Source: an uncultured Candidatus Saccharibacteria bacterium
Lineage (GTDB): Bacteria > Patescibacteriota > Minisyncoccia > 2-02-FULL-40-12 > GWA2-44-9
Assembly (NCBI GenBank): GCA_964488565.1
Contig: CAZAUE010000002.1
Coordinates: 40,048 to 104,047, forward strand
DNA: 64,000 nucleotides
Reading direction: 5' to 3'
Made by a program: the position numbers and the translations under genes. The notes under the pieces were generated by a model. It worked only from the letters and a program-made list of their open reading frames with translations. It made no database searches and had not been told where the DNA came from. This document shows, in pieces, positions 5,307-54,336 of the stretch; position 1 is the first letter of the stretch; every line of letters begins with the position of its first letter.

Positions 5307-5651
5307 GGGGTTGAAGAAATTTTAAGAATCAAAAAAGGCGCAGAACGCCCCTAATAAGTATGTAGTGTGGGCTCTGCGCCTTTGGGTCTCTTGCGAGACA
5401 TGAATTGCCGGCAATCCACGAATGTGTCTGACCACCAGCTAAAGATCTATACTAATTATACAAAGTCATTGGTGACACTGCAATAGCCAAACTGTGGATA
5501 AGGTGACACCATCAAACCATGGTGACATATTCATGGTGACACCATCAAATATTGGCTAATAGTGTCATTATTCCAAATAATCAGCCCCGCCAAGCGGGGC
5601 TGATTATTTACTAAATTTTATGGTGACAACAGGTTATGCACAAACCATCAC

Positions 5652-39814: not shown

Positions 39815-40732
39815 ATGGCAAATAAATTCAAACTTTTTGTCGGTTTTTTGGCATTGATAGCCCTATTTTCGGTTTACAGTTTCTTCAATTCTTTTAGCTC
39901 TCCTTCTCCGATTACAAAAACCGCAAACATGCTCCAAAATTCTACATCCTTTAAGGTTGATGCCGATACAGATAAAGATGGTTTAACCAATCGAGACGAA
40001 TCCTATTGGAACACAGATTTTCAAAACCCCGATACTGATGGTGATGGATTTTTAGATGGAGAAGAAGTTTCATCCGGCCATGATCCTTTAATCCCTAGCC
40101 CAAACGACCTTTTAAATACTGGCAACACGACATACAAACTATCAAATCTCACACTCTCTGGTCTTTATGAAGGTTCTCTTGCTCCGAATAATCCAAATTA
40201 CAACAAATCCATATATGACATGGCACTTGCAGTTATGGATGATGCCTCCAGCGAGTTAAGCTCTAAAATTTCTCCTGAAAAAATAAAGACCTCAAAATCC
40301 AACAAAGAAAACCAGGAAAAATACATTAGGGAGATATCTCCTCTAATCGAGCAGATGTTCTCAGCTTATGTATTTGAGTTAAATAAAATTGCAAGCGACT
40401 TCAATAATTCAGAACTATCTAACTCAGACGATCAAATAATTGAATTTTTCAAGAATCAATCTGAACAATATGATGAGTATCTCAACACAGCACTAAACAT
40501 CGTCCCGCCTAAAAATTGGGAGTCTGATCATGTTGGGCTTTTAAAACTTCTTGAAGACCTAAAAAATGTTCATGCGGCAATCTTTAAAAATAATACTGAC
40601 CCGATCACAGCACTTGTTGCAATGAATCGACTCAGTGGTCTTTTGGAAATAATCCCCAAAATAACACTATCTTACGCTGAAAAAGTTGAGGTTGAAAAAA
40701 TAAAAACCGAATCAACTATTTTCCACAAATGA
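39815..40732 (+). CDS. secreted/membrane-anchored protein with thrombospondin type-3-like Ca-binding repeats
   Basis: N-terminal hydrophobic segment. DADTDKDGLTNRDE...DTDGDGFLDGEE repeats (DxDxDG). Remainder helical. Stop overlaps the next start (ATGA). Confidence 0.5.
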   Translation: MANKFKLFVGFLALIALFSVYSFFNSFSSPSPITKTANMLQNSTSFKVDADTDKDGLTNRDESYWNTDFQNPDTDGDGFLDGEEVSSGHDPLIPSPNDLLNTGNTTYKLSNLTLSGLYEGSLAPNNPNYNKSIYDMALAVMDDASSELSSKISPEKIKTSKSNKENQEKYIREISPLIEQMFSAYVFELNKIASDFNNSELSNSDDQIIEFFKNQSEQYDEYLNTALNIVPPKNWESDHVGLLKLLEDLKNVHAAIFKNNTDPITALVAMNRLSGLLEIIPKITLSYAEKVEVEKIKTESTIFHK

Positions 40733-42282
40733 GAGTAATCTTTTTAAAAACAATTACCTGCTTACTCTTTGTTATTCTTATTTATCCCAACAACACCGCA
40801 TTTGCAGCACCAACGGTTGGTTCAATTTCTGTGGGTGCCGCTAGATTTGGTGCTTGCTCCATAGGAGGAAAAATATCTCCCTACTTAAGCCAAGTATTGG
40901 ATGACGGCTACAAAAATCTCAATAAAGGAATAAATAAAATTATCGCCCGAATTCCTGGATTATCTAGAATACCAGGTATCGGAGGATTGGCTGGTGGGGT
41001 TCTCGGTGGAGATTCTGTTCCGGTCAATGATGCTGGTTTAAATACTATTCAAAGCAGGCTTTTGGCAAAAGAAACTTCTGGTGACATTGCAACCAGATGC
41101 GCTTCTATGGAGGTTTTGAATTTTATGAACACAAGCATAAATGATCTAGCCAGAAATAGTGGTAGAAATGGCGGAGCGTCCTGGATTAGAAATTGGAGAA
41201 ACTTTCAAACCGACTCCCAATACAGAGGAGAGGGAATATTTAGAGCGATGCTTTCAAATACAAAACTTTGCGATTACTTTAGCGGTGACCTTAAGGGGTT
41301 ATTTGGAGCAACAACACCAACGGCTGCACCCAGAAATACCAGAACAGGCAATCTTGATCCCTACGCCCTTCGTGCTAATTGCACTATGCCCTCAGGTTTT
41401 AATTTAACCAATTATCAGAACGATTTTTCTGGAAATGGTGGTTGGAATGCTTTTTCGAGAATGCTTGAACCACAAAATAATTACTATGGAGCTTTGTTCG
41501 GGGCTTTAGATGAGGTGTCCAAGCAAAGATCGTTAGAGGAGTCGGCTGATTTAAACCAAGTTATAGCAAACAGGGGTTTCACTGGAAGGAGTGGTGGAAA
41601 TGCAGCTGAAAGTTGCTCTTCAAGAGACCCAAGTGGTAAATGTCTTAGCTACAACGACATAAAGACACCCGGAAGTGTAATCGCAGATAGTATTGCCGCA
41701 TCAATAAAAACAGAACTTGATGTGGCTGTTTCGGCAGATGAAATAAGTGAACTAATAAGCACCGCCACCGATGTTTTAATAAACAGATTAAAAGACCTTG
41801 GTAATCCTAATGAAGGTGAGTACTTATCATATACACCTCCCGAAGTGTCTGAAGAAGCACCACCCGGAGGTGGTGGTCGTTGTGCTGGAACAAGCACGGG
41901 TCCAATCTATGAGGGAGCTCTTGATGGTGCAATTAGTGCTGTTATTACTGCCAATCCGGGAGGAATAGCCGATGAACTTAACACCGCCAATAATGGTTTT
42001 GTTTTTCTAAGCTATTTAGGCCCAGAACTAGAGCGAAGAGGATTTAACGCTACCGCTACGGTCTTGAATGGAAATGACAATCCCAACCAAGGAGATTTAA
42101 TTGCGCTTCAGAGACCAAACGAGCCGGAATGGGAACGATATGATGTAATTGTTAATTCCGGAGCAGGAGATGCTCCACTAAGGACAGTGGTCGGTACTGA
42201 CTATGTAGGCACCATTCCTTTGAGTTGTGTTACGGGTGGTAGTGGTGGTGGTGGAACACCAACTCCTGAACCGGCATTTTAA
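40729..42282 (+). CDS. large secreted Cys-containing hypothetical protein
   Basis: Signal peptide ending NNTAFA|AP. 517 aa. Gly-rich segments and a C-terminal GGSGGGGTPTPEPAF tail. Translationally coupled to the flanking genes. Confidence 0.45.
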   Translation: MRVIFLKTITCLLFVILIYPNNTAFAAPTVGSISVGAARFGACSIGGKISPYLSQVLDDGYKNLNKGINKIIARIPGLSRIPGIGGLAGGVLGGDSVPVNDAGLNTIQSRLLAKETSGDIATRCASMEVLNFMNTSINDLARNSGRNGGASWIRNWRNFQTDSQYRGEGIFRAMLSNTKLCDYFSGDLKGLFGATTPTAAPRNTRTGNLDPYALRANCTMPSGFNLTNYQNDFSGNGGWNAFSRMLEPQNNYYGALFGALDEVSKQRSLEESADLNQVIANRGFTGRSGGNAAESCSSRDPSGKCLSYNDIKTPGSVIADSIAASIKTELDVAVSADEISELISTATDVLINRLKDLGNPNEGEYLSYTPPEVSEEAPPGGGGRCAGTSTGPIYEGALDGAISAVITANPGGIADELNTANNGFVFLSYLGPELERRGFNATATVLNGNDNPNQGDLIALQRPNEPEWERYDVIVNSGAGDAPLRTVVGTDYVGTIPLSCVTGGSGGGGTPTPEPAF

Positions 42283-44741
42283 TGATAAAAATAAAACTAT
42301 CAAAACTTAGTTTATTATTTGTACTAATCGCGGTGAGCGCAATGGTTTTGCTTCCAACACATCCAGTTAATGCCGCGTGTATTGCTGGATTTTTCCCCAT
42401 AACAGACTGCATTCTTGTGGGAACATCCTATCTTGTTTATTTAGTATTCACGATAGTTGGTCAAGGCATCGCTGCTCTGGTTGGGGTTCTTCAGTGGGTT
42501 ATAAATCTTCCTGTTTACCCAGCTGACGGCCAGAGAATCGCTGTTATTGATGAAAGTTGGAAAATAATGAGAGACTTTGCCAACATGTTTTTCATCTTAG
42601 CTCTTATTCTGATGGCGTTTGCAACTATTTTTGACGTTCTTCCTGGAGCGGCTAAATATAATGCTCGGGCTTTGTTCGGTAAATTTATTTTTACAGCACT
42701 TCTTATAAATTTCAGTCTAGTGCTCGGGGTTATGGTTATTCAAGGAACTCAAGTTCTAAATAATACATTTCTGACATCAATAGGGGACATGTCTAGTCAA
42801 TTGGGGCAAGCATTAAATCCGTCACTTTTACTTCCAAATATTAGTTCCGCAACAATTTCCCAAGCAGTAGATCAGGGCTTGTTTGGATCTCTTATTTCAC
42901 TAGTATTTGCTGTTGTTTTGGCTTTTACTTTTTTATTCAGTCTTTTGACAGCAGTTATCTTTTCCTTCATTAGAATTCCGATTCTCTGGGCCCTGTTAGT
43001 GATTTCACCGATTGCCTGGATTTTAAATATTTTTCCGGCAGGAGAAGGTATGTTTAAAAAATGGTGGAGTACATTCATAGGTTGGAATATGTTTCTTCCA
43101 ATCTTTCTGTTTTTCCTTTATTTCGGTCTTTATTTCCTTAAGAGCCAAGGCACCACAATGCAGGCAATAGCAGGAAGCTCTGGTACTGGTACTATTCTGG
43201 GTGACACTGTCACAAGTTTCACTTTTCAAATGTTGTTCATGTATGTCATGGCAGGAATATTCTTAATTGGTGGAACAATCGTCGCCATGAAAGCATCTAT
43301 GTTGTCTGGAACTGGAGTGCTGGGAATTGCGAAGTGGTCACGAGGAAAAGCGGCGCGCTGGACAGGATTAACCGGAGCAAATCAAGCTTGGCAGGAAAAG
43401 AGAAAAGAAATTGAAGGAGGAGAGGGGAGATTGGGCAGAATTTTTGGTGGTCCACCGATGGGACTTGAGTCATCCAGAAGACTGCTCGGTGTCAGAGGAG
43501 GAGATTACAAAACCCAAAAGGAATTCGTTGATAGGGCTGGAAAAGAATATGACCTTATTCAAAATCAATATGACACTGGCAAAATTAGTGTTAATGACAT
43601 AGTTGCCCGAGCTAGCCAAGGAAGTGCTACTAATCCAGAGACATACGCCTACAGAAAAATGGCTGCCAAAATGGGTAAACTTACTGATCCTATTTTTGAA
43701 AAAACAGTTAACGACTTGTCGGAAAATCCTTATGCTCTGCAAGACTTTATTAAAACAGCCAAAGAGGGCAAGTTTTCCGATGTTGGTGCTGGTACAATAC
43801 TTGATTTTGCCTCTCGACAAGGTGGTTTTGCGAATACCGGACCCAATGCACTTCCAGGTAGACGAGAAACATATAGACACATTCAGTCTAATGCCAAAAT
43901 AATGTCTAATCCGAGATTTGGTCAAAGTGAATTCAATCAAGGTGTAGACATTTTTGGCGGACATACAACCGCTGAAGGTCAAAGCTTCTTAGAAGATGTT
44001 GGCAAAACCAGACCTGACTTGGTCATAGATTACAATATGGGAAATGAGGATGTAATGAGAAAGATAAACGATAGAAGGAGAGAAGAGGGTAAAAATCCAG
44101 TTACTCGTTCAGAAATGTTTGATGGTTATATTAAAGACGCAAAAGATATCGCCAACCTTCCCAAGACTGTGTGGACAAATCAAGACTTTCAAAAAGCTCT
44201 CGAAAGAAAACTGTCTTTCGGTAGCCCCAAGGCTCAAAGAAATTTCCGAAACCGTATCATTGATAACCTTAGGACTGCCATGAACGGCGAGGACAAGAAA
44301 AATATTTTAAACACATTGTCAGGAGCTAGAGATGATGGACAAACACCAGACAATGACAACTTTGGAGAAGACGACTTGGATTTAGATAACGATGAAACTC
44401 CACCAACAGGGGGTGGTCCTGGTCCAACAACACCGCCAACCCCAACAACTCCTCGAACTAACAATGTAAACCCTAACAACGTCGTTAATTTAAGAAACCC
44501 CACAACTCAAAACACTAGGGGGTCAGGATGGCTATCTGATGTACAACAAAACATTGAGAGGCTCGGCAAACAAGAATTTACACTTGAAGATGCGTATAGT
44601 TTTGAGGGCGAACTAAGCACACTTCATCCTGAAAATAAATTTGTAAAAGATAAAATCCGACAACAACTACAGGTTCTACGTGATAAAGGATACCTTGAAT
44701 TTACTGGCCCAGGAAAATACCGAATAAAAAATAGCCCATGA
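42282..44741 (+). CDS. VirB6/TrbL-like polytopic membrane protein with large C-terminal hydrophilic extension
   Basis: N-terminal signal or TM segment plus about 7 further TM helices over about 330 aa (the VirB6/TrbL architecture). Then a roughly 450-aa soluble domain containing a PT-rich linker (GGGPGPTTPPTPTTP). Position immediately upstream of VirB3-like and VirB4 genes. Confidence 0.5.
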   Translation: MIKIKLSKLSLLFVLIAVSAMVLLPTHPVNAACIAGFFPITDCILVGTSYLVYLVFTIVGQGIAALVGVLQWVINLPVYPADGQRIAVIDESWKIMRDFANMFFILALILMAFATIFDVLPGAAKYNARALFGKFIFTALLINFSLVLGVMVIQGTQVLNNTFLTSIGDMSSQLGQALNPSLLLPNISSATISQAVDQGLFGSLISLVFAVVLAFTFLFSLLTAVIFSFIRIPILWALLVISPIAWILNIFPAGEGMFKKWWSTFIGWNMFLPIFLFFLYFGLYFLKSQGTTMQAIAGSSGTGTILGDTVTSFTFQMLFMYVMAGIFLIGGTIVAMKASMLSGTGVLGIAKWSRGKAARWTGLTGANQAWQEKRKEIEGGEGRLGRIFGGPPMGLESSRRLLGVRGGDYKTQKEFVDRAGKEYDLIQNQYDTGKISVNDIVARASQGSATNPETYAYRKMAAKMGKLTDPIFEKTVNDLSENPYALQDFIKTAKEGKFSDVGAGTILDFASRQGGFANTGPNALPGRRETYRHIQSNAKIMSNPRFGQSEFNQGVDIFGGHTTAEGQSFLEDVGKTRPDLVIDYNMGNEDVMRKINDRRREEGKNPVTRSEMFDGYIKDAKDIANLPKTVWTNQDFQKALERKLSFGSPKAQRNFRNRIIDNLRTAMNGEDKKNILNTLSGARDDGQTPDNDNFGEDDLDLDNDETPPTGGGPGPTTPPTPTTPRTNNVNPNNVVNLRNPTTQNTRGSGWLSDVQQNIERLGKQEFTLEDAYSFEGELSTLHPENKFVKDKIRQQLQVLRDKGYLEFTGPGKYRIKNSP

Positions 44742-45046
44742 GATTTCAATTACCACAATTTATTGAGACAGAGACCAAAATAATTGGTCCGTTTACTCTT
44801 CAACAATTCCTGTGGATTGCCGGCGGGGTAGCTTTCATTTTTTTGTTCTATACTTTAATCAAGGGGGTTTTATTCTTCTTTCTTGCAATTCCGGTGGCTG
44901 TAATTTTCGGAGCCCTGGCCTTTGTTAAAATAGATGGCGTTCCGCTTATTGTTTATGCATCTTATAGTATTTCTTATTTCACGAATCCCAAAAAATATGT
45001 TTTCAAAAAAGACGATGAGGGTATAAAAGATTACACTAAGCAATAG
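44738..45046 (+). CDS. VirB3-like small two-TM membrane protein
   Basis: 102 aa with two hydrophobic helices. Encoded directly upstream of the VirB4 ATPase, as VirB3/PrgI-type proteins are. Confidence 0.4.
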   Translation: MRFQLPQFIETETKIIGPFTLQQFLWIAGGVAFIFLFYTLIKGVLFFFLAIPVAVIFGALAFVKIDGVPLIVYASYSISYFTNPKKYVFKKDDEGIKDYTKQ

Positions 45047-45054
45047 ATACAAGC

Positions 45055-45711
45055 ATGGCAACCCAATCCACCAAACAATTAGTCGAAATTTCTAACATCA
45101 TAGACAATGTTGTTTTACTAAAAAACGGATCATTAAGATCTGTGATTGAGGTTACAGCAATAAACTTTGAGCTCCGCTCAGAAGGGGAGCAGATAGCCAT
45201 TCTTCAGAATTTTCAACGATTTGTAAATTCAATAGATTTTCCACTTCAGATAGTAATTAACTCCAGAAAGTTAAACATAGACGAGTATGTTAAGTTTGTT
45301 GAAAAATCTTCAGGCGAACTTACCAATGAATTGTTAAAAATACAGGCCACGGAGTATTCCAAATTCATTAAGGAGCTTTCCGACCTTTCTAATATCATGT
45401 CCAAGAAATTCTATATTGTTATACCTTTCTATGTTTTTGAGGCGCCTTCAAAGGCGGGGATAACCCAAAGCTTAAAAAGTATATTCAAACCCTCTACTGT
45501 TGCAAAAGAGCTTACTCCAGAACAATTGGAAACCTACAAAAGCCAACTTCTTCAAAGAACTGAACTGATTTTTGATGGCTTGGTTGGAATGGGACTAAAA
45601 ACAAGAACATTAGAAAAGGATGACTTAATGAATCTTTTCTATGGACTATATAATCCATCCACTAAAAGCGATTTTAAAAGCACTGAAGATAACACGCTAG
45701 ACTTAAAATAA
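45055..45711 (+). CDS. VirB4/TraC-type ATPase, N-terminal domain (separate ORF)
   Basis: IIDNVVLLKNGSLRSVIEVTAINFELRSEGEQIAILQNFQRFVNSIDFPLQIVI resembles the N-terminal domain of Gram-positive-type VirB4 (ConE/PrgJ/TcpF-like). Ends in TAATG overlapping the next start in a different frame. Confidence 0.6.
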   Translation: MATQSTKQLVEISNIIDNVVLLKNGSLRSVIEVTAINFELRSEGEQIAILQNFQRFVNSIDFPLQIVINSRKLNIDEYVKFVEKSSGELTNELLKIQATEYSKFIKELSDLSNIMSKKFYIVIPFYVFEAPSKAGITQSLKSIFKPSTVAKELTPEQLETYKSQLLQRTELIFDGLVGMGLKTRTLEKDDLMNLFYGLYNPSTKSDFKSTEDNTLDLK

Positions 45712-47456
45712 TGGATATCGGACAAAATAAAAAATTAGACGAATTGTTTGCCCCTTCGGCTTTCAGCGTTTCACCTAACTATTTTCAGATAGGGGATAGA
45801 TATGCTCGCACGATCTTTCTTGCAACTTATCCGCGCTATCTCCAAACCAGTTGGTTTTCACCGGTAATAAATCTTGACCGAGTATTTGATGTTTCGATTT
45901 TTATATTACCAAAAAATACGGCCACGGTTCTCAAGCAGTTACGAGACCAGCTGGCCAGACTCCAATCTCAAGTGATGGAGGAATCCTCAAAGGGAAAAGT
46001 TCGTGATCCAATGCTTGAGACGGCTATCCAAGACATAGAGACACTAAGAGACAAACTCCAGCAAGGAACTGATAAGTTCTTTGAACTTGGGGTCTATATT
46101 ACGATTTATGAAAACAGCGTAAAAGAATTAGATGAAACTGAAAATAAAATTAAAGGTTTTTTGGAATATCAACTAGTCTATCCGAAACCGGCTATTTTCA
46201 GAATGAATGAAGGTTTTAATTCAACCCTTCCTATTAATGACGACCAGCTTAATGTTCACACCTCACTAAACACAGAGCCACTTTCTTCTTTGTTTCCGTT
46301 CGTTTCTTTTGACCTGACATCCGATTCGGGAATCCTTTATGGCATAAACACACACAATAATTCACTAGTCTTGTTCGACAGATTTGGTTTAGAAAACGCC
46401 AATGCTGTAGTTTTTGGAAAATCTGGAGGTGGTAAAAGCTATACAATCAAGTTGGAAATATTAAGAAGTCTTCTTTTTGGAACTCAGGTTTTAATTATTG
46501 ATCCAGAAAACGAATACAAATATCTCTCAGACACAATTGGAGGATCGTCGATAAAAATTTCGATTAATTCAGACCAACACATCAATCCATTTGATTTACC
46601 AACACCAAAATCCGACGAGTCGCCGGCTGACGTTTTCAAATCCCACATTTTAGAGCTTACTGGTCTTTTAAGACTCATGCTCGGAGAACTAACCCCAGAA
46701 GAGTCAGCCATCTTAGATGAAGCTCTTATCCAGACATATGCCATCAAGGACATAACTCCAGAATCAGATTTCTCTCAGTCATCTCCACCATTACTTTCTG
46801 ACCTTCAAAGTATTCTTGAGGGATTAACTGGGGCAGAATCAATGGCCATAAGACTACGAAAGTATACACAGGGAACTTATTCAGGGTTCTTGAATAAGCC
46901 AACCAACGTATCTCTTGATAATCAACTCATTACGTTTAGTATACGAGAAATGGAAGAGGAGTTAAGACCTATCGCCATGTACCTAATCTTGAATTTTATG
47001 TGGGTAACAATAAGAAGAACCCTCAAGAAACGCATTCTTGTTGTTGATGAGGCTTGGGTACTTATGAAATATGAAGTTGGCGCAAACTTTTTATCCAATA
47101 TCGCCAAGAGAGCTCGAAAATATTATGCTGGGCTGACAACAATCACTCAAGACATACCCGATTTCCTCTCATCGCCACAAGGAAAAACTATTCTGAGTAA
47201 TTCTTCAATACAAGTACTAATGAAGCAGTCGCCATCATCAATTGAGGTGGTAAAAGAAACCTTCAACCTAACTGATGCTGAAAAATATTACCTATTAGAG
47301 GCACGTGTAGGTTTTGGATTATTCTTCCTTGGGCAAAATCATATCGGCATTAGGGTTGTTGCCTCTTATGCTGAAGATCAAATAATTACTTCTGATCCAC
47401 GCCAAATACTTGAGATAGAAAAGGCAAAAGAGGAGTGGGCTAAATTAAGAGGGTAA
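45711..47456 (+). CDS. VirB4/TraC/CagE-type T4SS ATPase, C-terminal ATPase domain
   Basis: Walker A VVFGKSGGGKS, Walker B RILVVDEAW, a TQ sensor motif (LTTITQD), and VirB4-type linker regions. 581 aa. Together with the 218-aa ORF it makes about 799 aa, the size of a full VirB4. Confidence 0.75.
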   Translation: MDIGQNKKLDELFAPSAFSVSPNYFQIGDRYARTIFLATYPRYLQTSWFSPVINLDRVFDVSIFILPKNTATVLKQLRDQLARLQSQVMEESSKGKVRDPMLETAIQDIETLRDKLQQGTDKFFELGVYITIYENSVKELDETENKIKGFLEYQLVYPKPAIFRMNEGFNSTLPINDDQLNVHTSLNTEPLSSLFPFVSFDLTSDSGILYGINTHNNSLVLFDRFGLENANAVVFGKSGGGKSYTIKLEILRSLLFGTQVLIIDPENEYKYLSDTIGGSSIKISINSDQHINPFDLPTPKSDESPADVFKSHILELTGLLRLMLGELTPEESAILDEALIQTYAIKDITPESDFSQSSPPLLSDLQSILEGLTGAESMAIRLRKYTQGTYSGFLNKPTNVSLDNQLITFSIREMEEELRPIAMYLILNFMWVTIRRTLKKRILVVDEAWVLMKYEVGANFLSNIAKRARKYYAGLTTITQDIPDFLSSPQGKTILSNSSIQVLMKQSPSSIEVVKETFNLTDAEKYYLLEARVGFGLFFLGQNHIGIRVVASYAEDQIITSDPRQILEIEKAKEEWAKLRG

Positions 47457-47465
47457 TCAATAACC

Positions 47466-48029
47466 ATGGGATACGAATCAGAAGAAAAAAAAGAGTCGTT
47501 AAATCCAGAAAATAAACAAAACAGGCTGGACCGGATCTGGGAACAACAAGAGGGGCTTGAGCCAGGTAGCGCTAATCAGTCAAAGCAGGAAAGACTGGAA
47601 CGAATCTTGGAACAACAAGAACAGCTCGAATCAGACAGGGCTGTTTATCAAAACGAGCAAGAAAGAGAAAGTGCGGAAGCAAAAAATCAATCTCCACAAG
47701 CACAACCATACAAAATGGGGGCTGGGTCTTATGTCCTTATACTCTTTGCTCTTTTCGTTGATATAATTGAAATAATAACAACCTACACAGGGGTTGGTGC
47801 TATAATTTCTATCCCACTGGGTCTTCTTGTGGATGTTATAATATTTTTAGGGGTTGGCATGTCCAAAGATGCTCGAAAACAGTGGAAACGATTTGCTGTT
47901 GGGTTTGTTGGAGAAAATTTCCCCATACTTGCCTCAGTTCTTGAATTCATACCATTCCGAACACTTTCTTTAATCTGGATGTATCGAGGCATGAGTAGTC
48001 CTCAACAAGAAGATCCTGGGGTAAACTAA
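47466..48029 (+). CDS. hypothetical protein with charged N-terminal repeats and C-terminal two-TM hairpin
   Basis: Repeats RLDRIWEQQEGLE / RLERILEQQEQLE. C-terminal hydrophobic hairpin (VLILFALFVDIIEIITTYTGVGAIISIPLGLLVDVIIFLGVG). Operon position follows VirB4. Confidence 0.4.
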   Translation: MGYESEEKKESLNPENKQNRLDRIWEQQEGLEPGSANQSKQERLERILEQQEQLESDRAVYQNEQERESAEAKNQSPQAQPYKMGAGSYVLILFALFVDIIEIITTYTGVGAIISIPLGLLVDVIIFLGVGMSKDARKQWKRFAVGFVGENFPILASVLEFIPFRTLSLIWMYRGMSSPQQEDPGVN

Positions 48030-48030
48030 T

Positions 48031-49104
48031 ATGAATAGGAAATTTTTAATCTTTTTAACGGTTATTTCTTTATCTTTTACGGCTTTTTTATCCGGATATT
48101 TAGTAAGCCAAAAAGATTTTCATAGAAACCCTGATTCAATCCCTACCGGAAACATCCTTGATAAATTTAACGGTGTTAGCTCGGAATCAAATTCGCAAAT
48201 AAATTCATCTAACACACCAAAACTCCTAGGCCCAAGAAATGTAATATCTCCAATCCTCTCCAAAGAAAAAGATGGTATTATTTACTACGAAAAAGGCACG
48301 GGCAAGGTTTTTGAAATCACACCAAAAAACCTAAGAGAGAAGCCTGTTTCTGATATTTTTTTAGAAAATCTAGTTAAAACAATATGGGCACCATCGAGAA
48401 AAGAGGTTGTATCTGTTTTTTACTACCCGAAAGGAAATAGTTACAAATACTTTAATTACAAAACAAAATCTTCTGTTGATCTTGGGACAGATATTGAATC
48501 TTTGGTTTTCTCTCCTGATGGAAGTCAGATAGCTTATTTCGGAACAAAAAATGATTCCCGTGGTGTTTTTATTTCCCAACCTGACGGCAGTGCCTTAAAA
48601 CAAATACTCTCAAGTCGCTTGGAGGACGTGGAAGTTTATTGGCCTTCAAGTGAACTTCTCTCTTTTAAAACAACTTCGACTAATGGTTCTGAATTATATA
48701 GTCTATCCAAAGTAGGGGAGGTTAAAAAGATATTAGGCATAAAAGACGGTCTGGATATTAAATGGTCCGAAGACGGTTCGCGAATGTTGTTTTCTCAGAA
48801 AACAGAATCTGGCACTAGTTTGTTTTATAAAGATATCAACTCTGAAAAAGAGACTGGCCTGGGGATATCAACTCGAGCATCAAAATGTGATTGGGGCATG
48901 AGTGGAGAGACTGTGGTTTGTGGAGTTTCCAGAGCATCTATGTCTGGCGATGAAATATATGAAATTAATATAAATGGGGCAATAAAACTTATTTCCTCAC
49001 CAACCACAAAAATAAACACCTCAGAACTCTTTCTTTCTGGATTAGATAGTCACATTATTATTTTTAATAGTTTAGACAACAGATTGTACGTAATTAATAA
49101 ATAA
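48031..49104 (+). CDS. membrane-anchored TolB-like beta-propeller (PD40 repeat) protein
   Basis: N-terminal TM helix. PD40-like repeats (FSPDGSQIAYFG, WSEDGSRMLFS). Last gene of the operon. Terminator aaccccgcaattgcggggtt at 49106-49125. Confidence 0.5.
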   Translation: MNRKFLIFLTVISLSFTAFLSGYLVSQKDFHRNPDSIPTGNILDKFNGVSSESNSQINSSNTPKLLGPRNVISPILSKEKDGIIYYEKGTGKVFEITPKNLREKPVSDIFLENLVKTIWAPSRKEVVSVFYYPKGNSYKYFNYKTKSSVDLGTDIESLVFSPDGSQIAYFGTKNDSRGVFISQPDGSALKQILSSRLEDVEVYWPSSELLSFKTTSTNGSELYSLSKVGEVKKILGIKDGLDIKWSEDGSRMLFSQKTESGTSLFYKDINSEKETGLGISTRASKCDWGMSGETVVCGVSRASMSGDEIYEININGAIKLISSPTTKINTSELFLSGLDSHIIIFNSLDNRLYVINK

Positions 49105-49145: not shown

Positions 49146-49622
49146 CTATGGATAAGGCTTAATAACAATTCGTCTCTGTGGCTCATCTCCAATACTCTCT
49201 GTGGCCACATCAGGATAAGAAGCTAATTCCATGTGAACTATTCGTCTCTCATAAGCCGACATTGGAATAAGAACTTCTGCCTTCTGAGTATTTCTTACTC
49301 TGGTTACTGCCTGCTTGGCTGTATCTACAACAAATGATGCTCTGGATTTTTTGTAATCGTTAATGTCTATAATTATATTTTGTCCGTCATTATTTTTTAA
49401 AAGCATAGCTCTGACTAAGTGCTCAAAAGCTTTAAGATTCTGACCATTTTTACCAATAATAAACCTAACATTGTCAGGAGTATAAACAGAGACCACCACA
49501 GCCTTTGATTCAGGACCATTTTCTTCTCGTATTTCTACCTGGCAATCAAGGTTCATAAAACCAATAATCTTTTTGATTGTTGTAACTACTTTTTCTTTGT
49601 TTTGTTCGATTATATTATCCAC
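49146..49622 (-). CDS. jag: Jag/KhpB-like RNA-binding protein (KH + R3H domains)
   Basis: Conserved position downstream of yidC. R3H-like motif near the C-terminus. 158 aa. Confidence 0.7.
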   Translation of the reverse strand: MDNIIEQNKEKVVTTIKKIIGFMNLDCQVEIREENGPESKAVVVSVYTPDNVRFIIGKNGQNLKAFEHLVRAMLLKNNDGQNIIIDINDYKKSRASFVVDTAKQAVTRVRNTQKAEVLIPMSAYERRIVHMELASYPDVATESIGDEPQRRIVIKPYP

Positions 49623-50307
49623 AATATTTAATATATACCTGCTCTAGAATTGAAAAGACTGTAGTTGTTATCCAGTATAATACCAGACCTGCGGGTAAAT
49701 TCCAACCAATAATTATTATCATAACGGGGAAAAAATACAACATCTGACTATTCAAGGCTTTCATTTCTTTACTGACTCCTGCGCCTTGGTTTTGCGCTTT
49801 AGACACCCATGCTTGAGCAAACTGAGCCGCTCCAGCAATTATTGCCAAAAGAGGTATCTTGGAGGTTATGTTCATAAAACCAAAAGACATTTCGTTTATT
49901 GTTCCAGGATTAAGCACAAACGCATAAAGCATGCTTAGGTTTTCTGGTTTTAATCCAGCTATAAAAGCTTGGTACAGAGCAATCAAAATTGGTAGTTGAA
50001 TTAAAAGAGGAAGGCATCCTGCAAGGGGATTAACATTATGGTCTTTATACAATTTCATAATCTCAGCCGACTGAGCGGAAGAATCACCCTTGAGTCTCTG
50101 TTTTATCTCCTGCATCTTAGGGTTTAATTGATTTAGCTCTTTTTGAGACCTAACGGTTTTAATAGACAGAGGAAAGAAGAGTACTCTTATTACAGCCGTA
50201 AGAGCAATTATGGCTAACCCAAAATCATTCCCTGGCAAAACATTGTAAAGAAAAACAACGGCGTTAAATAATGGGCGGTATAAAATTTCAGTATATAGTG
50301 TCATCAT
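49615..50307 (-). CDS. yidC: membrane protein insertase YidC (short Gram-positive/CPR type)
   Basis: Five TM helices with the conserved YidC/Oxa1 core. 230 aa. Position within rnpA-yidD-yidC-jag. Confidence 0.85.
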   Translation of the reverse strand: MMTLYTEILYRPLFNAVVFLYNVLPGNDFGLAIIALTAVIRVLFFPLSIKTVRSQKELNQLNPKMQEIKQRLKGDSSAQSAEIMKLYKDHNVNPLAGCLPLLIQLPILIALYQAFIAGLKPENLSMLYAFVLNPGTINEMSFGFMNITSKIPLLAIIAGAAQFAQAWVSKAQNQGAGVSKEMKALNSQMLYFFPVMIIIIGWNLPAGLVLYWITTTVFSILEQVYIKYCG

Positions 50308-50327
50308 AATATTATAACTGGCAGTGA

Positions 50328-50558
50328 TTACGCTTCGTCTATGCCTGCTTTAGACAAAGGATTACATCTTAAAACTCTACCCACGGCTTTTATTGTCCCT
50401 CTTGTGGCTCCATATTTAGAAACCGCATCAAGAGCATAATCGGAACAGGTTGGATAAAACCTACAAGAAGAATTAAATGATCCGAAAGGACTACTGGCCC
50501 AAAAAGGGGATATTGCCCCTTTATAAAACTTAATTAATTTAATTATTATTATTTTCAT
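50328..50558 (-). CDS. yidD: membrane protein insertion efficiency factor YidD
   Basis: 76 aa with conserved Cys and the YidD motif FYKGAISPF...CRFYPTCSDYA. Confidence 0.75.
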   Translation of the reverse strand: MKIIIIKLIKFYKGAISPFWASSPFGSFNSSCRFYPTCSDYALDAVSKYGATRGTIKAVGRVLRCNPLSKAGIDEA

Positions 50559-50908
50559 TTAATTTTCTTAATAACCTCCAAAAAATCATCGACCAGATCC
50601 TTCTTGTCCGCAATGATTGTTTTCTTGGTTGCAAATACAATAATGTCGTGACCTTCTAAATTTTTAATCCTACCTCTTGCTGCTTCGGAAATAATTCTCC
50701 TTATCTTATTTCTTTCAACTGCTTTCTTTGCAATTTTAGCCGATACAACAAACCCGAAACGGGGGATACCTAATTCGTTTGTTCTGTGTTTTATAAACAA
50801 AAAGCTGCCATTAACAGCTTTCCCTTTTTTAAAAACGTCCTCGAAGTCTCGTTTTTTCTTAAGCCTGTTTTTTATATTCAAAGCCATGCGATAATTGTCC
50901 GCGAACAC
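50555..50908 (-). CDS. rnpA: ribonuclease P protein component
   Basis: 117 aa, basic, RNR-like motif (KIAKKAVERNKIRR). Position after rpmH. Confidence 0.8.
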   Translation of the reverse strand: MFADNYRMALNIKNRLKKKRDFEDVFKKGKAVNGSFLFIKHRTNELGIPRFGFVVSAKIAKKAVERNKIRRIISEAARGRIKNLEGHDIIVFATKKTIIADKKDLVDDFLEVIKKIK

Positions 50909-50987
50909 AGTGAGTGGTTACAATTATCAGCACCCGCCTTAGGCGGGTAACTTTTTGTTTCCAATCGCTAAGCTCTTGGACAAAAAG

Positions 50988-51125
50988 TTAGACAGCTAAA
51001 CTCTTCCTGCCTTTTCTCCTTCGCCTGGTCAAAACATTCCTTCCAGACTTAGTTTGCATCCTTCCCAGAAAGCCATGTTTTACTTTCCTTTTCTTCTTTT
51101 TTGGTCTAAATAAAGTAGATTTCAT
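50988..51125 (-). CDS. rpmH: 50S ribosomal protein L34
   Basis: The C-terminal 45 aa [45 protein letters not shown] match L34. I start at the internal Met (ATG revcomp at 51123-51125), because the 25-aa N-terminal extension in the ORF track is not L34-like. Confidence 0.8.
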
Positions 51126-51375
51126 AAGTTTTAGTATACTTTTTATTTCTTGGAGGGTCAACCCCGCCGTTGAAGAGCAGAATTTATAATTATTAACCAA
51201 TTAACCCTAAAATCTCCATTGATTAACTATTTTTTAAAATAAAAAATTTAATTTTATGATTACACTGCTTTTCAACGGCGGGGTCAATATTGTTTTAATA
51301 TTTTCCACTTGTTATACACAATATATCAACTAATTTCTTGTCCCGCTAAATTTTTAACAAGGTATAATAAAACGT

Positions 51376-52749
51376 ATGACCAACGAAGAACTATGGAAAG
51401 CGGTGTTAGGAGAAATGGAATTGTCTTTAACCAAGGCAAATTTTACTACTTGGTTTAGGAACACCACTATTTTATCTAAAGATAAAAACGCTGTCGTTGT
51501 AAGTGTGCCTAATGGTTTTATTAAAGAATGGCTTGAAAACAAATTTAACAAAAGAATTCTTCAGTCTATTAGAAACCAGACCCCTGAAATAAGAGAGATA
51601 AAATATCTCATCGGCCGACCCAAAATAGAGCTTGCAAAACAAGACCTATCAAAAATGAATCTCGATACTGAGATAGACGAGAAAGCCGAATCGGATCTTG
51701 ATAAGGATCTAGATAAGACAACCAACCTAAACAGGAAATATACATTTGATTCTTTTGTTGTAGGTTCAAATAATGAGCTGGCTCATGCTGCTGCTTCGGC
51801 TGTAACCAAAAATCTTGGACGACTTTATAATCCACTATTCCTTTATGGTGGTGTTGGGTTAGGCAAAACCCACCTCCTTCAGTCTATTGGCAATAAGATA
51901 GCCGCGGAAAATAGGGATAAGAAAATATATTACATTCCCGCAGAAAGATTTACTGCTGAAATTGTGGAGGCAATCAGAAACAAAAACATAGAAGAGTTAA
52001 AAAATCAGTATTCAAAACTAGACCTACTCATGATTGATGATGTTCAGTTTATCGCCGGCAAAGAAAAGACTCAGGACATATTCTTTTCAACGTTCAATGA
52101 ACTCTATAGCCGAAACAAGCAAATAATTCTTTCCTCGGATCGACCTCCTCAAACAATTCCCGCACTTGAAGAACGTTTACGTTCACGCTTTCAAGGTGGC
52201 ATGGTCGCTGATGTTGGTCTGCCTGATTTTGAAACTAGGTTAGCTATCTTGAAATTAAAAGCTGCTGAAAGAAATTATGATCTTAATTTAGAGGTCCTCA
52301 CTTATATAGCTACTCACATCCAGAAAAATGTCAGAGAGCTTGAAGGAGCCTTAAACAGGGTAGTGGCTTTTGGTCAAATCTATAATAGAGTTCCCGATAT
52401 AAAAGAAGTAAAAAACATTCTAAACACCTACCTAAGCACTCCTTATAGAAAAACTTCTCCTCAGGTAATTCTTAAGTCGGTTGCCGATTTTTATAGTATT
52501 TCTTTGGCTGATTTAGTAAAAAGAAGTCGAAAGAAAGAAATTGTTAGACCTAGACAAATAGCCATGTTTTTACTTAGAGAGGAGACTAAATTATCCTTCC
52601 CTGAAATAGGTCAAAAATTAGGTGGGCGTGACCATTCAACTGTTATCCATGCTTGTGAGAAAATTAAAAACGAAGTTTCAGTAGATGAACCATTAAAACA
52701 AGAATTAATTTTGATAAAAGAACGTGTTTATAATTCGTTTGATAAGTAG
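51376..52749 (+). CDS. dnaA: chromosomal replication initiator DnaA
   Basis: N-terminal domain I, AAA+ Walker A GGVGLGKTHL, Walker B LLMIDDVQF, sensor and Arg finger, and a C-terminal DnaA-box-binding HTH. 457 aa. Confidence 0.95.
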   Translation: MTNEELWKAVLGEMELSLTKANFTTWFRNTTILSKDKNAVVVSVPNGFIKEWLENKFNKRILQSIRNQTPEIREIKYLIGRPKIELAKQDLSKMNLDTEIDEKAESDLDKDLDKTTNLNRKYTFDSFVVGSNNELAHAAASAVTKNLGRLYNPLFLYGGVGLGKTHLLQSIGNKIAAENRDKKIYYIPAERFTAEIVEAIRNKNIEELKNQYSKLDLLMIDDVQFIAGKEKTQDIFFSTFNELYSRNKQIILSSDRPPQTIPALEERLRSRFQGGMVADVGLPDFETRLAILKLKAAERNYDLNLEVLTYIATHIQKNVRELEGALNRVVAFGQIYNRVPDIKEVKNILNTYLSTPYRKTSPQVILKSVADFYSISLADLVKRSRKKEIVRPRQIAMFLLREETKLSFPEIGQKLGGRDHSTVIHACEKIKNEVSVDEPLKQELILIKERVYNSFDK

Positions 52750-52752
52750 TGA

Positions 52753-53022
52753 GGTCAGGTAATTAACATATTTAACAATCTTAGCGGAGCGGATTTTAGC
52801 CAAATCCGAGACGCGAGGATGAAGCTGTAGTTTATTCTACTGCGAGTCCGAGTAACGAAGGATTTGGTCTAAAATCAGCCCGCCCTCAGAGGGAAGCAAT
52901 GAATAGACCGATTTCTTTATCACTCCTCCTTGTCATAGAACAATCTATGTCTTCGTCGTCGTTTCTTGAACTCGGTCTATTCATTAGTTTCTAATGTTGT
53001 TAAATATGTTAATTACCTGACC
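52753..53022. mobile_element. MITE-like element with 26-bp perfect terminal inverted repeats inserted at the dnaA stop codon
   Basis: ggtcaggtaattaacatatttaacaa (52753-52778) pairs with ttgttaaatatgttaattacctgacc (52997-53022). The roughly 220-bp core has further internal inverted repeats (ggattttagccaaatcc / ggatttggtctaaaatc). No ORF. Confidence 0.6.
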
Positions 53023-53026
53023 ACAA

Positions 53027-53244
53027 ACTTGTTGATAAATTTGGAAATAAAAAGTTATCATTTATATATCCAGATGTAATTAGTACTTTATTAACATTTA
53101 AACAAAACAAAATTTAACCAATTTAGTTAATGATTACGTGATAAAAGTAATATCATCCACAAAGTTTTCAACATTTCCACAGCCCTAATAATAGTAATAA
53201 TATTTTAATCTAATAGTTATAAGAAGAGATCCACTATCCACTTT
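53027..53244. promoter_or_regulatory. putative oriC segment / dnaN promoter region with DnaA-box-like motifs and an AT-rich unwinding region
   Basis: TCATCCACA (53153-53161), ATTTCCACA (53173-53181), CTATCCACT and GATCCACT (53229-53243) approximate the TTATCCACA consensus. The intervening sequence is more than 80% AT. Classic dnaA-dnaN intergenic location. Confidence 0.5.
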
Positions 53245-54336
53245 ATGAAAATAACAGTTAATCAAAAAAATCTTAAGAAAGCATTAAGTCTGGTTGAGAA
53301 GGTTGTTTCTAAAAATTCATCTCTTCCGATTTTAAATAACATTCTTCTTAAAACTGAAAATGGGCGTCTTAAAATTTCAGCCACAAATCTTGAGATAGGA
53401 ATTAATTATATTATTGGCGCTAAAATTGAAGAGGTAGGTCAGATAGCCGTACCCGCAAGAATTATTTCAGATTTTATAGGAAATATAATGGACGACAAAG
53501 TTTCCTTAACAACAAAGAATAATATTTTAAGCATAAATTCCGACAGGTATAAGACTCAAATTCTTGGTTTTGATGCTAAAGATTTTCCAATAATACCTAA
53601 AATAAAATCCCAACCCCTAGCTGCTATTCCGACTAAACTTCTTAAAAATTCACTTATGACAGTTTTAGATTCAGTAGCTGTATCAGAAACAAGACCAGAA
53701 CTAGCAGGAGTCTATATGAATTTTAATAACGACAAGATTGTATTTGCAGCCACTGATAGTTTTAGATTAACTGAAAAAAGTGTTGATTTTAAAAATGTTC
53801 AAAAACAATTTTTCATCATTCCAAGAAACACAGTCGTAGAATTAATAAGAATAGCAGGAGAGATAGAAGGGGATTTATCGTTTAATACTAGCGATAATCA
53901 AGTATCTTTCTTTAATGATGATTTTGAAATGGTATCAAGGATTGTAGATGGAAATTATCCTGATTATAAAAAAATAATTCCTGAAAAATCTGTATCTAGG
54001 GTATTGGTAAACAAAAACGAATTAGATAAAAACATACGCATAGCAGGTTTATTCTCAACAAACATATCCGATATAAAAATTAACTGTTCTGAAGGTAAGA
54101 TGGCTATTTTAGCCAAAAACTCAGACAAAGGAGAAATTGAGACTCTTGTTGAAGCATCTCTTAAGAATGAACCATTTGAAGTTTCTTTAAACTTCCACTA
54201 CCTTCTTGATGGTTTAAAAATATTAGATACAGAAAAAATTATTATAGAATTTACAGGACAAGGTAGTCCTTTGGTAATAAGACCTAATGATGACAAAAAA
54301 GATGTGGTCTATCTCATTATGCCCCTAAGAAGTTAA
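53245..54336 (+). CDS. dnaN: DNA polymerase III beta sliding clamp
   Basis: 363 aa, three-domain clamp architecture, conserved position after dnaA. Confidence 0.9.
   Translation: MKITVNQKNLKKALSLVEKVVSKNSSLPILNNILLKTENGRLKISATNLEIGINYIIGAKIEEVGQIAVPARIISDFIGNIMDDKVSLTTKNNILSINSDRYKTQILGFDAKDFPIIPKIKSQPLAAIPTKLLKNSLMTVLDSVAVSETRPELAGVYMNFNNDKIVFAATDSFRLTEKSVDFKNVQKQFFIIPRNTVVELIRIAGEIEGDLSFNTSDNQVSFFNDDFEMVSRIVDGNYPDYKKIIPEKSVSRVLVNKNELDKNIRIAGLFSTNISDIKINCSEGKMAILAKNSDKGEIETLVEASLKNEPFEVSLNFHYLLDGLKILDTEKIIIEFTGQGSPLVIRPNDDKKDVVYLIMPLRS

What the first reader, a model, noticed from the sequence alone, without database searches (positions are those of the whole stretch)
45055..47456. VirB4 ATPase encoded as two ORFs joined by a TAATG overlap in different frames
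The 218-aa ORF carries a VirB4 N-terminal-domain-like sequence and the 581-aa ORF carries the Walker A and Walker B ATPase domain. Together they make about 799 aa, the size of an intact VirB4. The first ORF's TAA stop overlaps the second ORF's ATG at 45709-45713, with a frame change. This is either an authentic split gene with translational coupling, a recent frameshift making a pseudogene, or a sequencing error in a homopolymer. The A-run aaaataatgg lies at the junction.
Basis: seen in the sequence. Interest (0 to 1): 0.5.

Follow-up and report, generated by a model that had tools for sequence, protein, structure and literature searches.

The report
Conserved two-gene VirB4 (TrsD plus ATPase)
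[quoted passage not shown] This arrangement is already described, so it is neither a broken gene nor a sequencing error.

Summary
ORF1 runs 45055-45711 (218 aa) and ORF2 runs 45711-47456 (581 aa, with Walker A and Walker B). They share a TAATG at 45709-45713, with ORF2 in the -1 frame.

The split is authentic and old:
- All 35 species-level relatives that carry both parts have two separate genes. Their junctions vary (overlaps of 1, 4 and 14-17 nt, spacers up to about 380 nt) and use all three relative frames.
- Independent assemblies at 88-91% nucleotide identity keep the same TAATG.
- Both ORFs are under strong purifying selection.
- TAATG and ATGA overlaps also join unrelated neighbouring genes in the same operon.

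Joined end to end, the two proteins align collinearly with full-length VirB4, with nothing missing. The junction falls in a variable linker that the structure model predicts as low-confidence. It sits at the same place as TrsD|TrsE of staphylococcal plasmid pSK41.

ORF1 belongs to the TrsD / "TraC-like" (PF26593) family. A 2025 paper reports this family as the most abundant T4SS component in Patescibacteria, usually next to virB4, and reports the cluster as often near dnaA, as it is here.

A sister clade (Colwellbacteria) carries the fused form, which is a minor new detail.

Verdict: already known, low interest.

The parts
45055..45711 (+). TrsD-like / 'TraC-like' (PF26593) protein, 218 aa. 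It is the stand-alone equivalent of the N-terminal subdomain of full-length VirB4.
45709..45713 (+). TAATG stop/start overlap (ORF1 TAA, ORF2 ATG). Probable site of termination-reinitiation coupling.
   Evidence: The same overlap is kept in L049, L050 and L051 at 88-91% nt identity. The operon has another TAATG and two ATGA overlaps between unrelated genes.
45711..47456 (+). VirB4-type ATPase core, 581 aa: the second N-terminal subdomain plus the RecA-like ATPase domain.
   Evidence: NF045971 at 361.7 bits against a cut-off of 325. Pfam P-loop_TraG, AAA_10 and DUF87. PDB 4ag5 VirB4 C-terminal domain at E 3e-42 and TrwK 302-736. 26% identity with pSK41 TrsE from residue 15.
46416..46439 (+). 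Walker A motif GKSGGGKS
47034..47051 (+). Walker B motif ILVVDE
44738..45046 (+). PrgI family (VirB3-like) small membrane protein, 102 aa, immediately upstream.
   Evidence: Pfam PF12666 at E 6.7e-12. Same position as trsC in pSK41.
42282..44741 (+). VirB6/TrbL-like polytopic membrane protein, 819 aa, with a C-terminal DpnI_C winged-helix domain.
   Evidence: PF17726 at E 1.8e-27 over aa 749-814. TrbL_3 (weak) plus DpnI_C are on record for the same protein in L052. The N-terminal part is conserved in the related loci.
40729..42282 (+). 517-aa protein with no family match. It is co-oriented and overlaps the next gene by TAATG.
   Evidence: Also present in L052. A 501-aa gene occupies the same position in L048; its homology was not tested.
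47466..48029 (+). 187-aa protein with no family match; the hydrophobic C-terminal stretches were judged by eye only. It occupies the position downstream of virB4.
   Evidence: Genes of 142-144 aa sit at the same position in L048 and L051; homology was not tested.
48031..49104 (+). 357-aa beta-propeller-like protein (TolB/PD40/Tricorn_N-like), the last gene of the co-oriented block.

Best explanation
These are two genuine, co-transcribed genes of the chromosomal type IV secretion system (monoderm, MPF-FATA-like) of a Yanofskybacteria-like member of the Patescibacteria.

- **ORF1** is a TrsD-family protein. It is homologous to the first roughly 200 residues of full-length VirB4.
- **ORF2** is the rest of VirB4: the second N-terminal subdomain plus the Walker A/B ATPase domain.
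- **The break.** The gene is divided at a variable interdomain linker. This is the same position that separates TrsD from TrsE in the staphylococcal plasmids pSK41/pGO1. The divided state is inherited by a whole clade, while a sister clade keeps the fused form.

**Shown:** homology and collinearity, conservation of the split, purifying selection on both parts, and conserved gene order PrgI(VirB3-like) - TrsD-like - VirB4.

**Inferred:** the two polypeptides reassemble non-covalently into a VirB4-like protomer. In that assembly the TrsD-like part would dock the ATPase hexamer onto the PrgI/VirB3-VirB6 membrane platform, as the VirB4 N-terminal domain does in the R388 structure. The one-base stop/start overlap would couple translation (termination-reinitiation) so that both parts are made in similar amounts.
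For: 1. **Split in all relatives.** In all 35 GTDB species-level loci that carry both parts, the ORF1 homologue ends in its own stop and the ORF2 homologue has its own start. Junctions are ATGA, TAATG, 14-17 nt overlaps, 1-10 nt gaps, or 18 to about 380 nt spacers. Relative frames are 0, +1 and +2 in 11, 9 and 15 loci.
2. **Same junction in independent samples.** Close relatives at 88-91% nt identity keep the same TAATG. An 81%-identical relative has a 10-nt gap instead.
3. **Homologues are stand-alone.** The 120 best homologues of ORF1 are all 202-229 aa. Among 50%-identity representatives, only 2 of the best 150 are fused-size; the rest are under 450 aa (mostly about 200-440 aa).
4. **Purifying selection.** pN is 0.08-0.16 against a saturated pS of 0.73-0.94 for ORF1. 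pN is 0.04-0.11 for ORF2.
5. **Collinear with full-length VirB4.** The joined protein aligns in one stretch with TIGR00929 (5-746 to profile 7-724) and with CD1110 (154-764 to 122-733, 380 bits). Pfam TraC_F_IV matches only across the junction (165-371).
6. **Same break point in fused relatives.** The natural fused relative P0210 has a 25-aa linker between the conserved ..YYNP and APAS.. motifs, where the window has stop/start. In P0237 the corresponding spacer exceeds 100 aa. The AF2 model of the joined protein has pLDDT below 50 at residues 207-224.
8. **Plasmid precedent.** pSK41 has trsC-trsD-trsE in the same order and with the same break point. ORF2 residue 15 aligns with TrsE residue 40. 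ORF1 residues 3-202 (alignment columns 14-213) align with TrsD residues 31-218.
9. **Overlaps are ordinary here.** Four of ten consecutive junctions in this operon are ATGA or TAATG overlaps.
10. **Literature (PMC12102498).** TrsD is the most abundant T4SS component in Patescibacteria. 1,664 of 2,272 homologues are next to virB4. The homologue in S. epibionticum is listed as essential. The T4SS cluster is often found near dnaA, dnaN, rnpA and ksgA, as in this window.
Against: - Physical association of the two products is not shown. I could not inspect inter-chain contacts or predicted aligned error.
- The match to the TrsD NCBIfam profile is significant but far below the curated cut-off (27 against 200 bits). 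The hhalign probability against pSK41 TrsD is low (10.8%, E 0.003), from a low-diversity alignment.
- In a second group of loci (L038-L043, L045) the TrsD-like gene is not next to any detectable VirB4 ATPase. The module may therefore do more than complete VirB4.
- No Shine-Dalgarno-like motif was seen upstream of either start. Translational coupling is inferred from geometry only.
Confidence: 0.9

Rival explanations
1. A recent frameshift has turned an intact virB4 into a pseudogene in this genome.
For: A one-base shift at the junction would join the frames and give ...LDLK-I-MDIGQ.... The joined protein is collinear with intact VirB4. A sister clade has the intact fused gene.
Against: All 35 species-level members of the clade are split, with different junctions, and 11 have in-frame stops. 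Some spacers reach about 380 nt. Both ORFs show strong purifying selection with saturated synonymous change. Homologues are stand-alone down to 35% identity.
Confidence: 0.02
2. A sequencing or assembly error (homopolymer indel) artificially splits one gene.
For: A short A-run (aaaa) precedes the stop. Real assembly artefacts of this kind do exist: the apparent 600-aa VirB4 P0409 is caused by a 100-N scaffold gap in L053.
Against: The run is only 4 bases. The same TAATG junction appears in assemblies from other samples: ERZ27297438, ERR6862848 and SRR22216448, at 88-91% nt identity. It also appears in a 99.99%-identical public scaffold. The whole clade is split.
Confidence: 0.01
3. Programmed -1 ribosomal frameshifting at A_AAA_UAA produces a fused full-length VirB4 alongside the two separate products.
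For: ORF2 is in the -1 frame. A P-site tRNA-Lys slip on A-AAA next to the stop would read through into ORF2.
Against: There is no canonical X_XXY_YYZ heptamer. Close relatives have G_AAA_TAA (L049, L050), a 10-nt gap (L048) or other frames and long spacers. No conserved frameshift signal exists.
Confidence: 0.03
4. The TrsD-like protein is an autonomous T4SS component (an adaptor or chaperone-like factor) and not simply the detached N-terminus of VirB4. Its adjacency to virB4 would reflect operon organisation only.
For: In L038-L043 and L045 the TrsD-like gene sits between PrgI and unrelated genes, with no ATPase match within the DNA held (up to 4 kb downstream). The literature notes TrsD unlinked from virB4 in Gracilibacteria. 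Apart from TrwK, its fold resembles CesT-type secretion chaperones and EccE. ORF1 evolves faster than ORF2.
Against: Fused natural proteins with the same domain order exist in a sister clade. Pfam TraC_F_IV matches only across the ORF1-ORF2 junction, which suggests one structural unit. The best structural match is the VirB4 N-terminus.
Confidence: 0.15

Closest known systems
TrsD-TrsE of Staphylococcus aureus conjugative plasmids pSK41/pGO1 (and TraD-TraE of pIP501); NCBIfam NF041427 TrsD/TraD family
   Same: - Same gene order: VirB3-like (TrsC/PrgI), then a protein of about 220 aa, then the VirB4-type ATPase.
- Same break point. ORF2 aligns with TrsE from near their N-termini (residue 15 with residue 40, 26% identity, E 3e-45). 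ORF1 aligns end to end with TrsD, including the C-terminal FYxLY motif.
- ORF1 hits NF041427 at E 3.4e-6.
   Different: - The sequence relation to plasmid TrsD is remote: 27 bits against the curated 200-bit cut-off.
- Here the system is chromosomal, next to dnaA/rnpA/yidC, with no relaxase or coupling protein identified among the 21 ORFs scanned.
- pSK41 has a 14-nt gap where the window has a TAATG overlap.
Patescibacteria chromosomal T4SS as described by Quinonero-Coronel et al. 2025 (PMC12102498) and Wang et al. 2023
   Same: - The component set VirB4 + TrsD + PrgI/VirB3 + VirB6 is clustered together.
- The cluster sits near dnaA, dnaN, rnpA and ksgA.
- TrsD is reported there as the most abundant component and as usually adjacent to virB4.
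   Different: - No VirB2-like pilin domain was detected in the window genes I scanned.
- The VirB6-like protein here carries an extra DpnI_C domain that the paper does not mention.
- The paper does not discuss fused versus split states.
Full-length VirB4 / TraC ATPases (TrwK of R388, PDB 7o41/7o42; CD1110 family NF045971; fused Colwellbacteria VirB4 such as P0210)
   Same: - Collinear over the whole length when ORF1 and ORF2 are joined.
- About 49-50% identity of the joined sequence to fused Colwellbacteria proteins.
   Different: Here there are two polypeptides in place of one. The break lies inside what Pfam models as one TraC N-terminal domain, but in a variable loop that the model predicts with low confidence.

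Membership tests
TrsD/TraD family (NF041427) / Pfam PF26593 TraC-like | Significant match to the family profile | tested here: inconclusive
   NF041427 gives E 3.4e-6 but 27 bits against a curated cut-off of 200. PF26593 is on record for the 100%-identical protein P0001 and all 120 best homologues. The local Pfam copy returns no hit for ORF1, so I could not reproduce the PF26593 hit myself.
TrsD/TraD family (NF041427) / Pfam PF26593 TraC-like | Stand-alone protein of about 200-230 aa encoded between a VirB3-like gene and a VirB4-type ATPase gene | tested here: met
   The order is PrgI 44738-45046, ORF1 45055-45711, ORF2 45711-47456. pSK41 has the same order, trsC-trsD-trsE.
TrsD/TraD family (NF041427) / Pfam PF26593 TraC-like | Homology to the N-terminal portion of full-length VirB4 | tested here: met
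   [not shown]
VirB4/TraC conjugative ATPase (NF045971 CD1110 family; TIGR00929) | Profile score above the curated cut-off | tested here: met
   ORF2 alone scores 361.7 bits against 325 for NF045971. The joined protein scores 380.4. The TIGR00929 cut-off (643 bits) is not reached (134-144 bits).
VirB4/TraC conjugative ATPase (NF045971 CD1110 family; TIGR00929) | Walker A and Walker B motifs in a RecA-like C-terminal domain | tested here: met
   GKSGGGKS at aa 236-243 and ILVVDE at aa 442-447. PDB 4ag5 at E 3e-42.
VirB4/TraC conjugative ATPase (NF045971 CD1110 family; TIGR00929) | Single polypeptide carrying both the N-terminal domain and the ATPase domain | tested here: not met
   There are two ORFs with separate stop and start. 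The whole clade is split.
VirB4/TraC conjugative ATPase (NF045971 CD1110 family; TIGR00929) | ATP hydrolysis, hexamer formation, binding to VirB3 | not testable with these tools
   Needs biochemistry or a multimer model with an interface read-out.
Patescibacteria chromosomal T4SS (PMC12102498) | VirB4 clustered with TrsD, PrgI/VirB3 and VirB6 homologues | tested here: met
   (TrbL_3 weak hit on the 819-aa protein).
Patescibacteria chromosomal T4SS (PMC12102498) | Location near the replication origin genes (dnaA, dnaN, rnpA, ksgA) | tested here: met
   KsgA-type methyltransferase at 38446-39189. Jag at 49146-49622 and YidC at 49615-50307. RnpA at 50555-50908, DnaA at 51376-52749 and DnaN at 53245-54336.
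Patescibacteria chromosomal T4SS (PMC12102498) | VirB2-like pilin genes nearby | tested here: inconclusive
   No T4SS_pilin hit in the neighbouring genes at the thresholds used. Small divergent pilins could be missed.
Frameshift pseudogene / assembly artefact | Close relatives have one uninterrupted ORF across the site; the interruption is private to this sequence | tested here: not met
   Relatives from 91% down to about 47% ORF1 identity are all split.
Frameshift pseudogene / assembly artefact | Relaxed selection on the fragments | tested here: not met
   pN/pS is about 0.1-0.17 for ORF1 and about 0.05-0.12 for ORF2, with saturated pS.

The most novel reading that the evidence does not exclude
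The VirB4 N-terminal subdomain may be a detachable, semi-autonomous module in Patescibacteria.

- It is fused in one clade (Colwellbacteria-like) and split in its sister clade (Yanofskybacteria-like, including this window).
- In other lineages it is encoded away from any ATPase gene.
- Its fold resembles CesT-type secretion chaperones and EccE.

On this reading the free TrsD-like protein would have a role of its own, such as substrate or adaptor recognition or regulated docking of the ATPase, beyond completing VirB4. The fission/fusion state would then mark a functional difference between lineages.
Probability: 0.15. Interest if true: 0.4.

Novelty: already known. Interest (0 to 1): 0.15.

Why it matters
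The main value is for annotation. A TAATG-joined pair that together looks like one protein should not be flagged automatically as a pseudogene or merged by a gene caller. Here it is the normal, selected state of an entire clade.

The T4SS of Patescibacteria is reported as essential for their epibiotic lifestyle, and TrsD has no assigned function (PMC12102498). The clean fused-versus-split contrast between sister lineages offers a natural experiment on what the VirB4 N-terminal module does. This is an incremental point, not a discovery.

Tried and rejected
- **Local Pfam scan of ORF1**: no hit, although PF26593 is on record for the identical protein. The local library probably lacks that model.
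- **Sequence search of ORF1 against PDB**: only chance-level hits. The fold search was needed.
- **hhalign of the ORF1 alignment against pSK41 TrsD**: an end-to-end alignment but only 10.8% probability, because the alignment had low diversity (Neff 1.4). I treat it as supporting evidence only.
- **A possible hidden ATPase remnant.** I tested whether the 340-aa gene downstream of the TrsD-like gene in L039 is one. BLASTP E 0.5 and no family hits. Rejected.
- **Possible independent recent fissions.** I tested whether the 600-aa proteins nested in the fused clade are such cases. P0409 is an artefact of a 100-N scaffold gap. P0505 was not checked.
- **Other VirB6-DpnI_C fusions**: only 256-aa DpnI enzymes and fragments were returned.
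- **Programmed -1 frameshifting:** considered and rejected as a conserved mechanism, because the slippery context and the frame relation are not conserved.
- **dN/dS proper** could not be computed because synonymous sites are saturated. I report pN and pS instead.
Full report
**1. Observation**

The ORF table and the sequence confirm the finding exactly.
- ORF1 is 45055..45711 (218 aa) and ends in TAA at 45709-45711.
- ORF2 is 45711..47456 (581 aa) and begins with ATG at 45711-45713.
- The two share TAATG, and ORF2 is in the -1 (+2) frame.
- The "A-run" is four bases.
- ORF2 has Walker A (GKSGGGKS, aa 236-243) and Walker B (ILVVDE, aa 442-447).
- ORF2 scores above NCBI's curated cut-off for the CD1110 family of VirB4-like ATPases (361.7 against 325 bits; profile positions 187-733 of 752).
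- ORF2 also matches the crystal structure sequence of a VirB4 C-terminal domain (4ag5, E 3e-42) and TrwK residues 302-736.
- ORF1 matches only the N-terminal positions of VirB4 profiles: VirB4_plasma 102-233 at E 7e-14, CD1110 3-119, TIGR00929 7-136. It also matches the TrsD/TraD family profile at E 3.4e-6.

**2. Is the split real?**

Comparative data settle this.

*Species-level relatives.* A scan of one genome per species returned 46 loci encoding an ORF1 relative. In all 35 loci that also carry an ORF2 relative, the two are separate ORFs. The junctions differ:
- ATGA overlaps (L001, L002, L004).
- TAATG overlaps (L008, L013, L029).
- 14-17 nt overlaps (L003, L017, L021).
- Gaps of 1-10 nt in many loci.
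- Spacers of 18 to about 380 nt (for example L019, L022, L025-L028, L030, L031).
- The relative frame is 0, +1 or +2 in 11, 9 and 15 loci.

No single indel can explain this pattern.

*Close relatives.* Assemblies from other samples at 88-91% nucleotide identity keep the same TAATG (L049, L050, L051). An 81%-identical one has a 10-nt gap (L048). A public scaffold 99.99% identical to the window has the same gene calls.

*Stand-alone homologues.* The 120 best database homologues of ORF1 are all 202-229 aa. Among 50%-identity representatives, only 2 of the best 150 are fused-size; the rest are under 450 aa, mostly about 200-440 aa.

*Selection.* Synonymous sites between the window and its relatives are saturated (pS 0.73-0.94). 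Nonsynonymous differences are few: pN 0.08-0.16 for ORF1 and 0.04-0.11 for ORF2.

*Operon context.* The overlap is ordinary for this operon. Of ten consecutive junctions between 36438 and 49104, two are ATGA and two are TAATG, including one TAATG between two unrelated genes at 42282.

The pseudogene and sequencing-error readings are therefore rejected.

**3. Is anything missing at the junction?**

No.
- The joined 799-aa sequence aligns in a single stretch with TIGR00929 (residues 5-746 to profile 7-724) and with CD1110 (154-764 to 122-733; the score rises to 380 bits).
- Pfam's TraC N-terminal domain model matches only when the two are joined (165-371, spanning residue 218/219; E 7e-4, below the gathering score).
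- Natural fused relatives show the same break point. P0210 (797 aa) has a 25-residue linker between ..YYNP and APAS.. where the window has ..YNP-17 aa-stop/Met-13 aa-APSA... In P0237 (898 aa) the corresponding spacer exceeds 100 aa and includes a Pro/Ala-rich stretch.
- An AlphaFold2 model of the joined sequence (mean pLDDT 71) has pLDDT below 50 at 207-224, that is, at the junction.

**4. Fold**

**5. Precedent and literature**

*Plasmid precedent.* pSK41 encodes, in order:
- trsC, 135 aa.
- trsD, 227 aa, annotated as a TrsD/TraD family protein.
- A 672-aa DUF87 ATPase, TrsE.

ORF2 aligns with TrsE from residue 15 against residue 40 through 549 against 617 (26% identity, E 3e-45). ORF1 residues 3-202 align with TrsD 31-218, including the C-terminal FYGLYNP/FYALYDY motif. 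The break point is therefore the same.

*Published description.* Quinonero-Coronel et al. 2025 (PMC12102498) report the following:
- There are 2,272 homologues, of which 1,664 are next to virB4.
- The homologue in S. epibionticum is listed as essential.
- The T4SS cluster commonly lies near dnaA, dnaN, rnpA and ksgA.

*The window fits that description.* Its gene order is:
- A KsgA-type methyltransferase (38446-39189).
- Three genes without a clear family assignment.
- The VirB6/TrbL-like gene.
- PrgI.
- The TrsD-like gene.
- VirB4.
- Two further genes.
- On the opposite strand: jag, yidC and rnpA.
- dnaA and dnaN.

**6. Evolutionary state**

- A search with the fused P0210 returned 118 fused proteins of 775-807 aa (59-100% identical to P0210) among its 120 listed hits. 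Several are named Candidatus Colwellbacteria.
- I built a neighbour-joining tree of the ATPase part, without support values. In it the fused proteins and the split loci (the window plus L001-L036) form two sister groups.
- More distant sequences also show both states: L044 and pSK41 TrsE are split, and P0237 is fused.
- One of the two 600-aa proteins inside the fused group is an artefact of a 100-N scaffold gap.
- The split in the window is thus a clade-wide inherited state. Fission or fusion at this linker has happened more than once. The direction is not resolved.

**7. Mechanism**

*Shown:* two conserved genes, collinear with VirB4, broken at a variable linker, in a conserved PrgI - TrsD-like - VirB4 order.

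*Inferred:*
- The products reassemble into a VirB4-like protomer. The TrsD-like part would provide the membrane-proximal, VirB3-binding end. This draws on my own knowledge of the R388 T4SS structure, where the VirB4 N-terminal domain contacts VirB3 and VirB8 tails.
- The one-base overlap would give translational coupling.
- I saw no Shine-Dalgarno-like motif before either start, which is consistent with reinitiation but does not prove it.

*Frameshifting.* A -1 slip at A_AAA_UAA could in principle make a fused product. The context is not conserved, even in close relatives.

**8. Caveats**

- The interaction of the two proteins is not demonstrated.
- Models are of moderate confidence.
- The TrsD profile match is below the curated cut-off.
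- I could not reproduce the PF26593 assignment locally.
- In a second group of loci the TrsD-like gene is not adjacent to an ATPase. This leaves room for a more autonomous role.

**9. Verdict**

The correct reading is an authentic, conserved two-gene VirB4 (TrsD-like protein plus ATPase core) in a Patescibacteria chromosomal T4SS. The arrangement is already described in the literature and has a plasmid precedent. Interest is low. The fused-versus-split contrast between sister clades and the side observations listed separately are the only new details.

Noticed in passing
window 42282-44741 (domain at about 44526-44723): The VirB6/TrbL-like channel protein (819 aa) ends in an intact DpnI_C winged-helix domain (PF17726, E 1.8e-27). 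In DpnI this domain binds methylated GATC. It is absent from the homologous gene in the other species' loci, including relatives at 88% nt identity in trsD-virB4. Its nearest relatives are 256-aa DpnI restriction enzymes of Patescibacteria (60-73% identity). It looks like a recent capture of a DNA-binding domain onto a T4SS membrane subunit.
   Followed up: partly
L010 about 5444-7038: The VirB4 ATPase of this Yanofskybacteria genome carries an in-frame insertion of about 530 aa inside Walker A (GKSGGGK|S...VHN|S). The insertion has LAGLIDADG-like motifs. By its sequence hallmarks it is an intein with a homing endonuclease.
   Followed up: partly
L038-L043, L045 (for example L039 3488-7902): There is a second conserved context for the TrsD-like gene. 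The order is PrgI, TrsD-like (about 220 aa), an unknown 340-aa protein, then a protein of about 700 aa that in L039 has a T4SS-pilin-like segment. No VirB4 ATPase match was found within the DNA held, up to 4 kb downstream.
   Followed up: partly
P0210, P0391-P0509 (protein ids); tree: A sister clade that includes Candidatus Colwellbacteria has the fused TrsD-VirB4 protein (775-807 aa). The clade containing the window is uniformly split. The published survey of Patescibacteria T4SS does not discuss this fused/split dichotomy.
   Followed up: partly
L053 about 1546-1646: An apparent 600-aa 'split' VirB4 (P0409) within the fused clade is caused by a run of 100 N in the scaffold. The N-terminal 89 residues are present upstream of the gap. 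It is a useful contrast to the genuine split.
   Followed up: yes
L019, L022, L025-L028, L030, L031 (spacer after position about 4605-4645): In some species the trsD-like and virB4 genes are separated by 70-380 nt spacers. By eye these contain inverted or short tandem repeats, for example cacctga repeats in L025 and hairpin-like sequences in L028 and L030. Their nature (terminators, attenuators or small mobile repeats) is unknown.
   Followed up: no
[not shown]
   Followed up: no
window 49146-54336: The T4SS block abuts the origin-proximal gene set: jag/khpB, yidC, rnpA on the minus strand, then dnaA and dnaN on the plus strand. This matches the published statement that Patescibacteria T4SS loci often lie near the replication origin.
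   Followed up: yes
window 45055-45711: The precomputed Pfam annotation gives PF26593 (TraC-like) for the identical protein. The session's Pfam-A scan returns nothing for it, even at E = 1. This is a library-version discrepancy worth knowing about when reading 'no Pfam hit'.
   Followed up: partly
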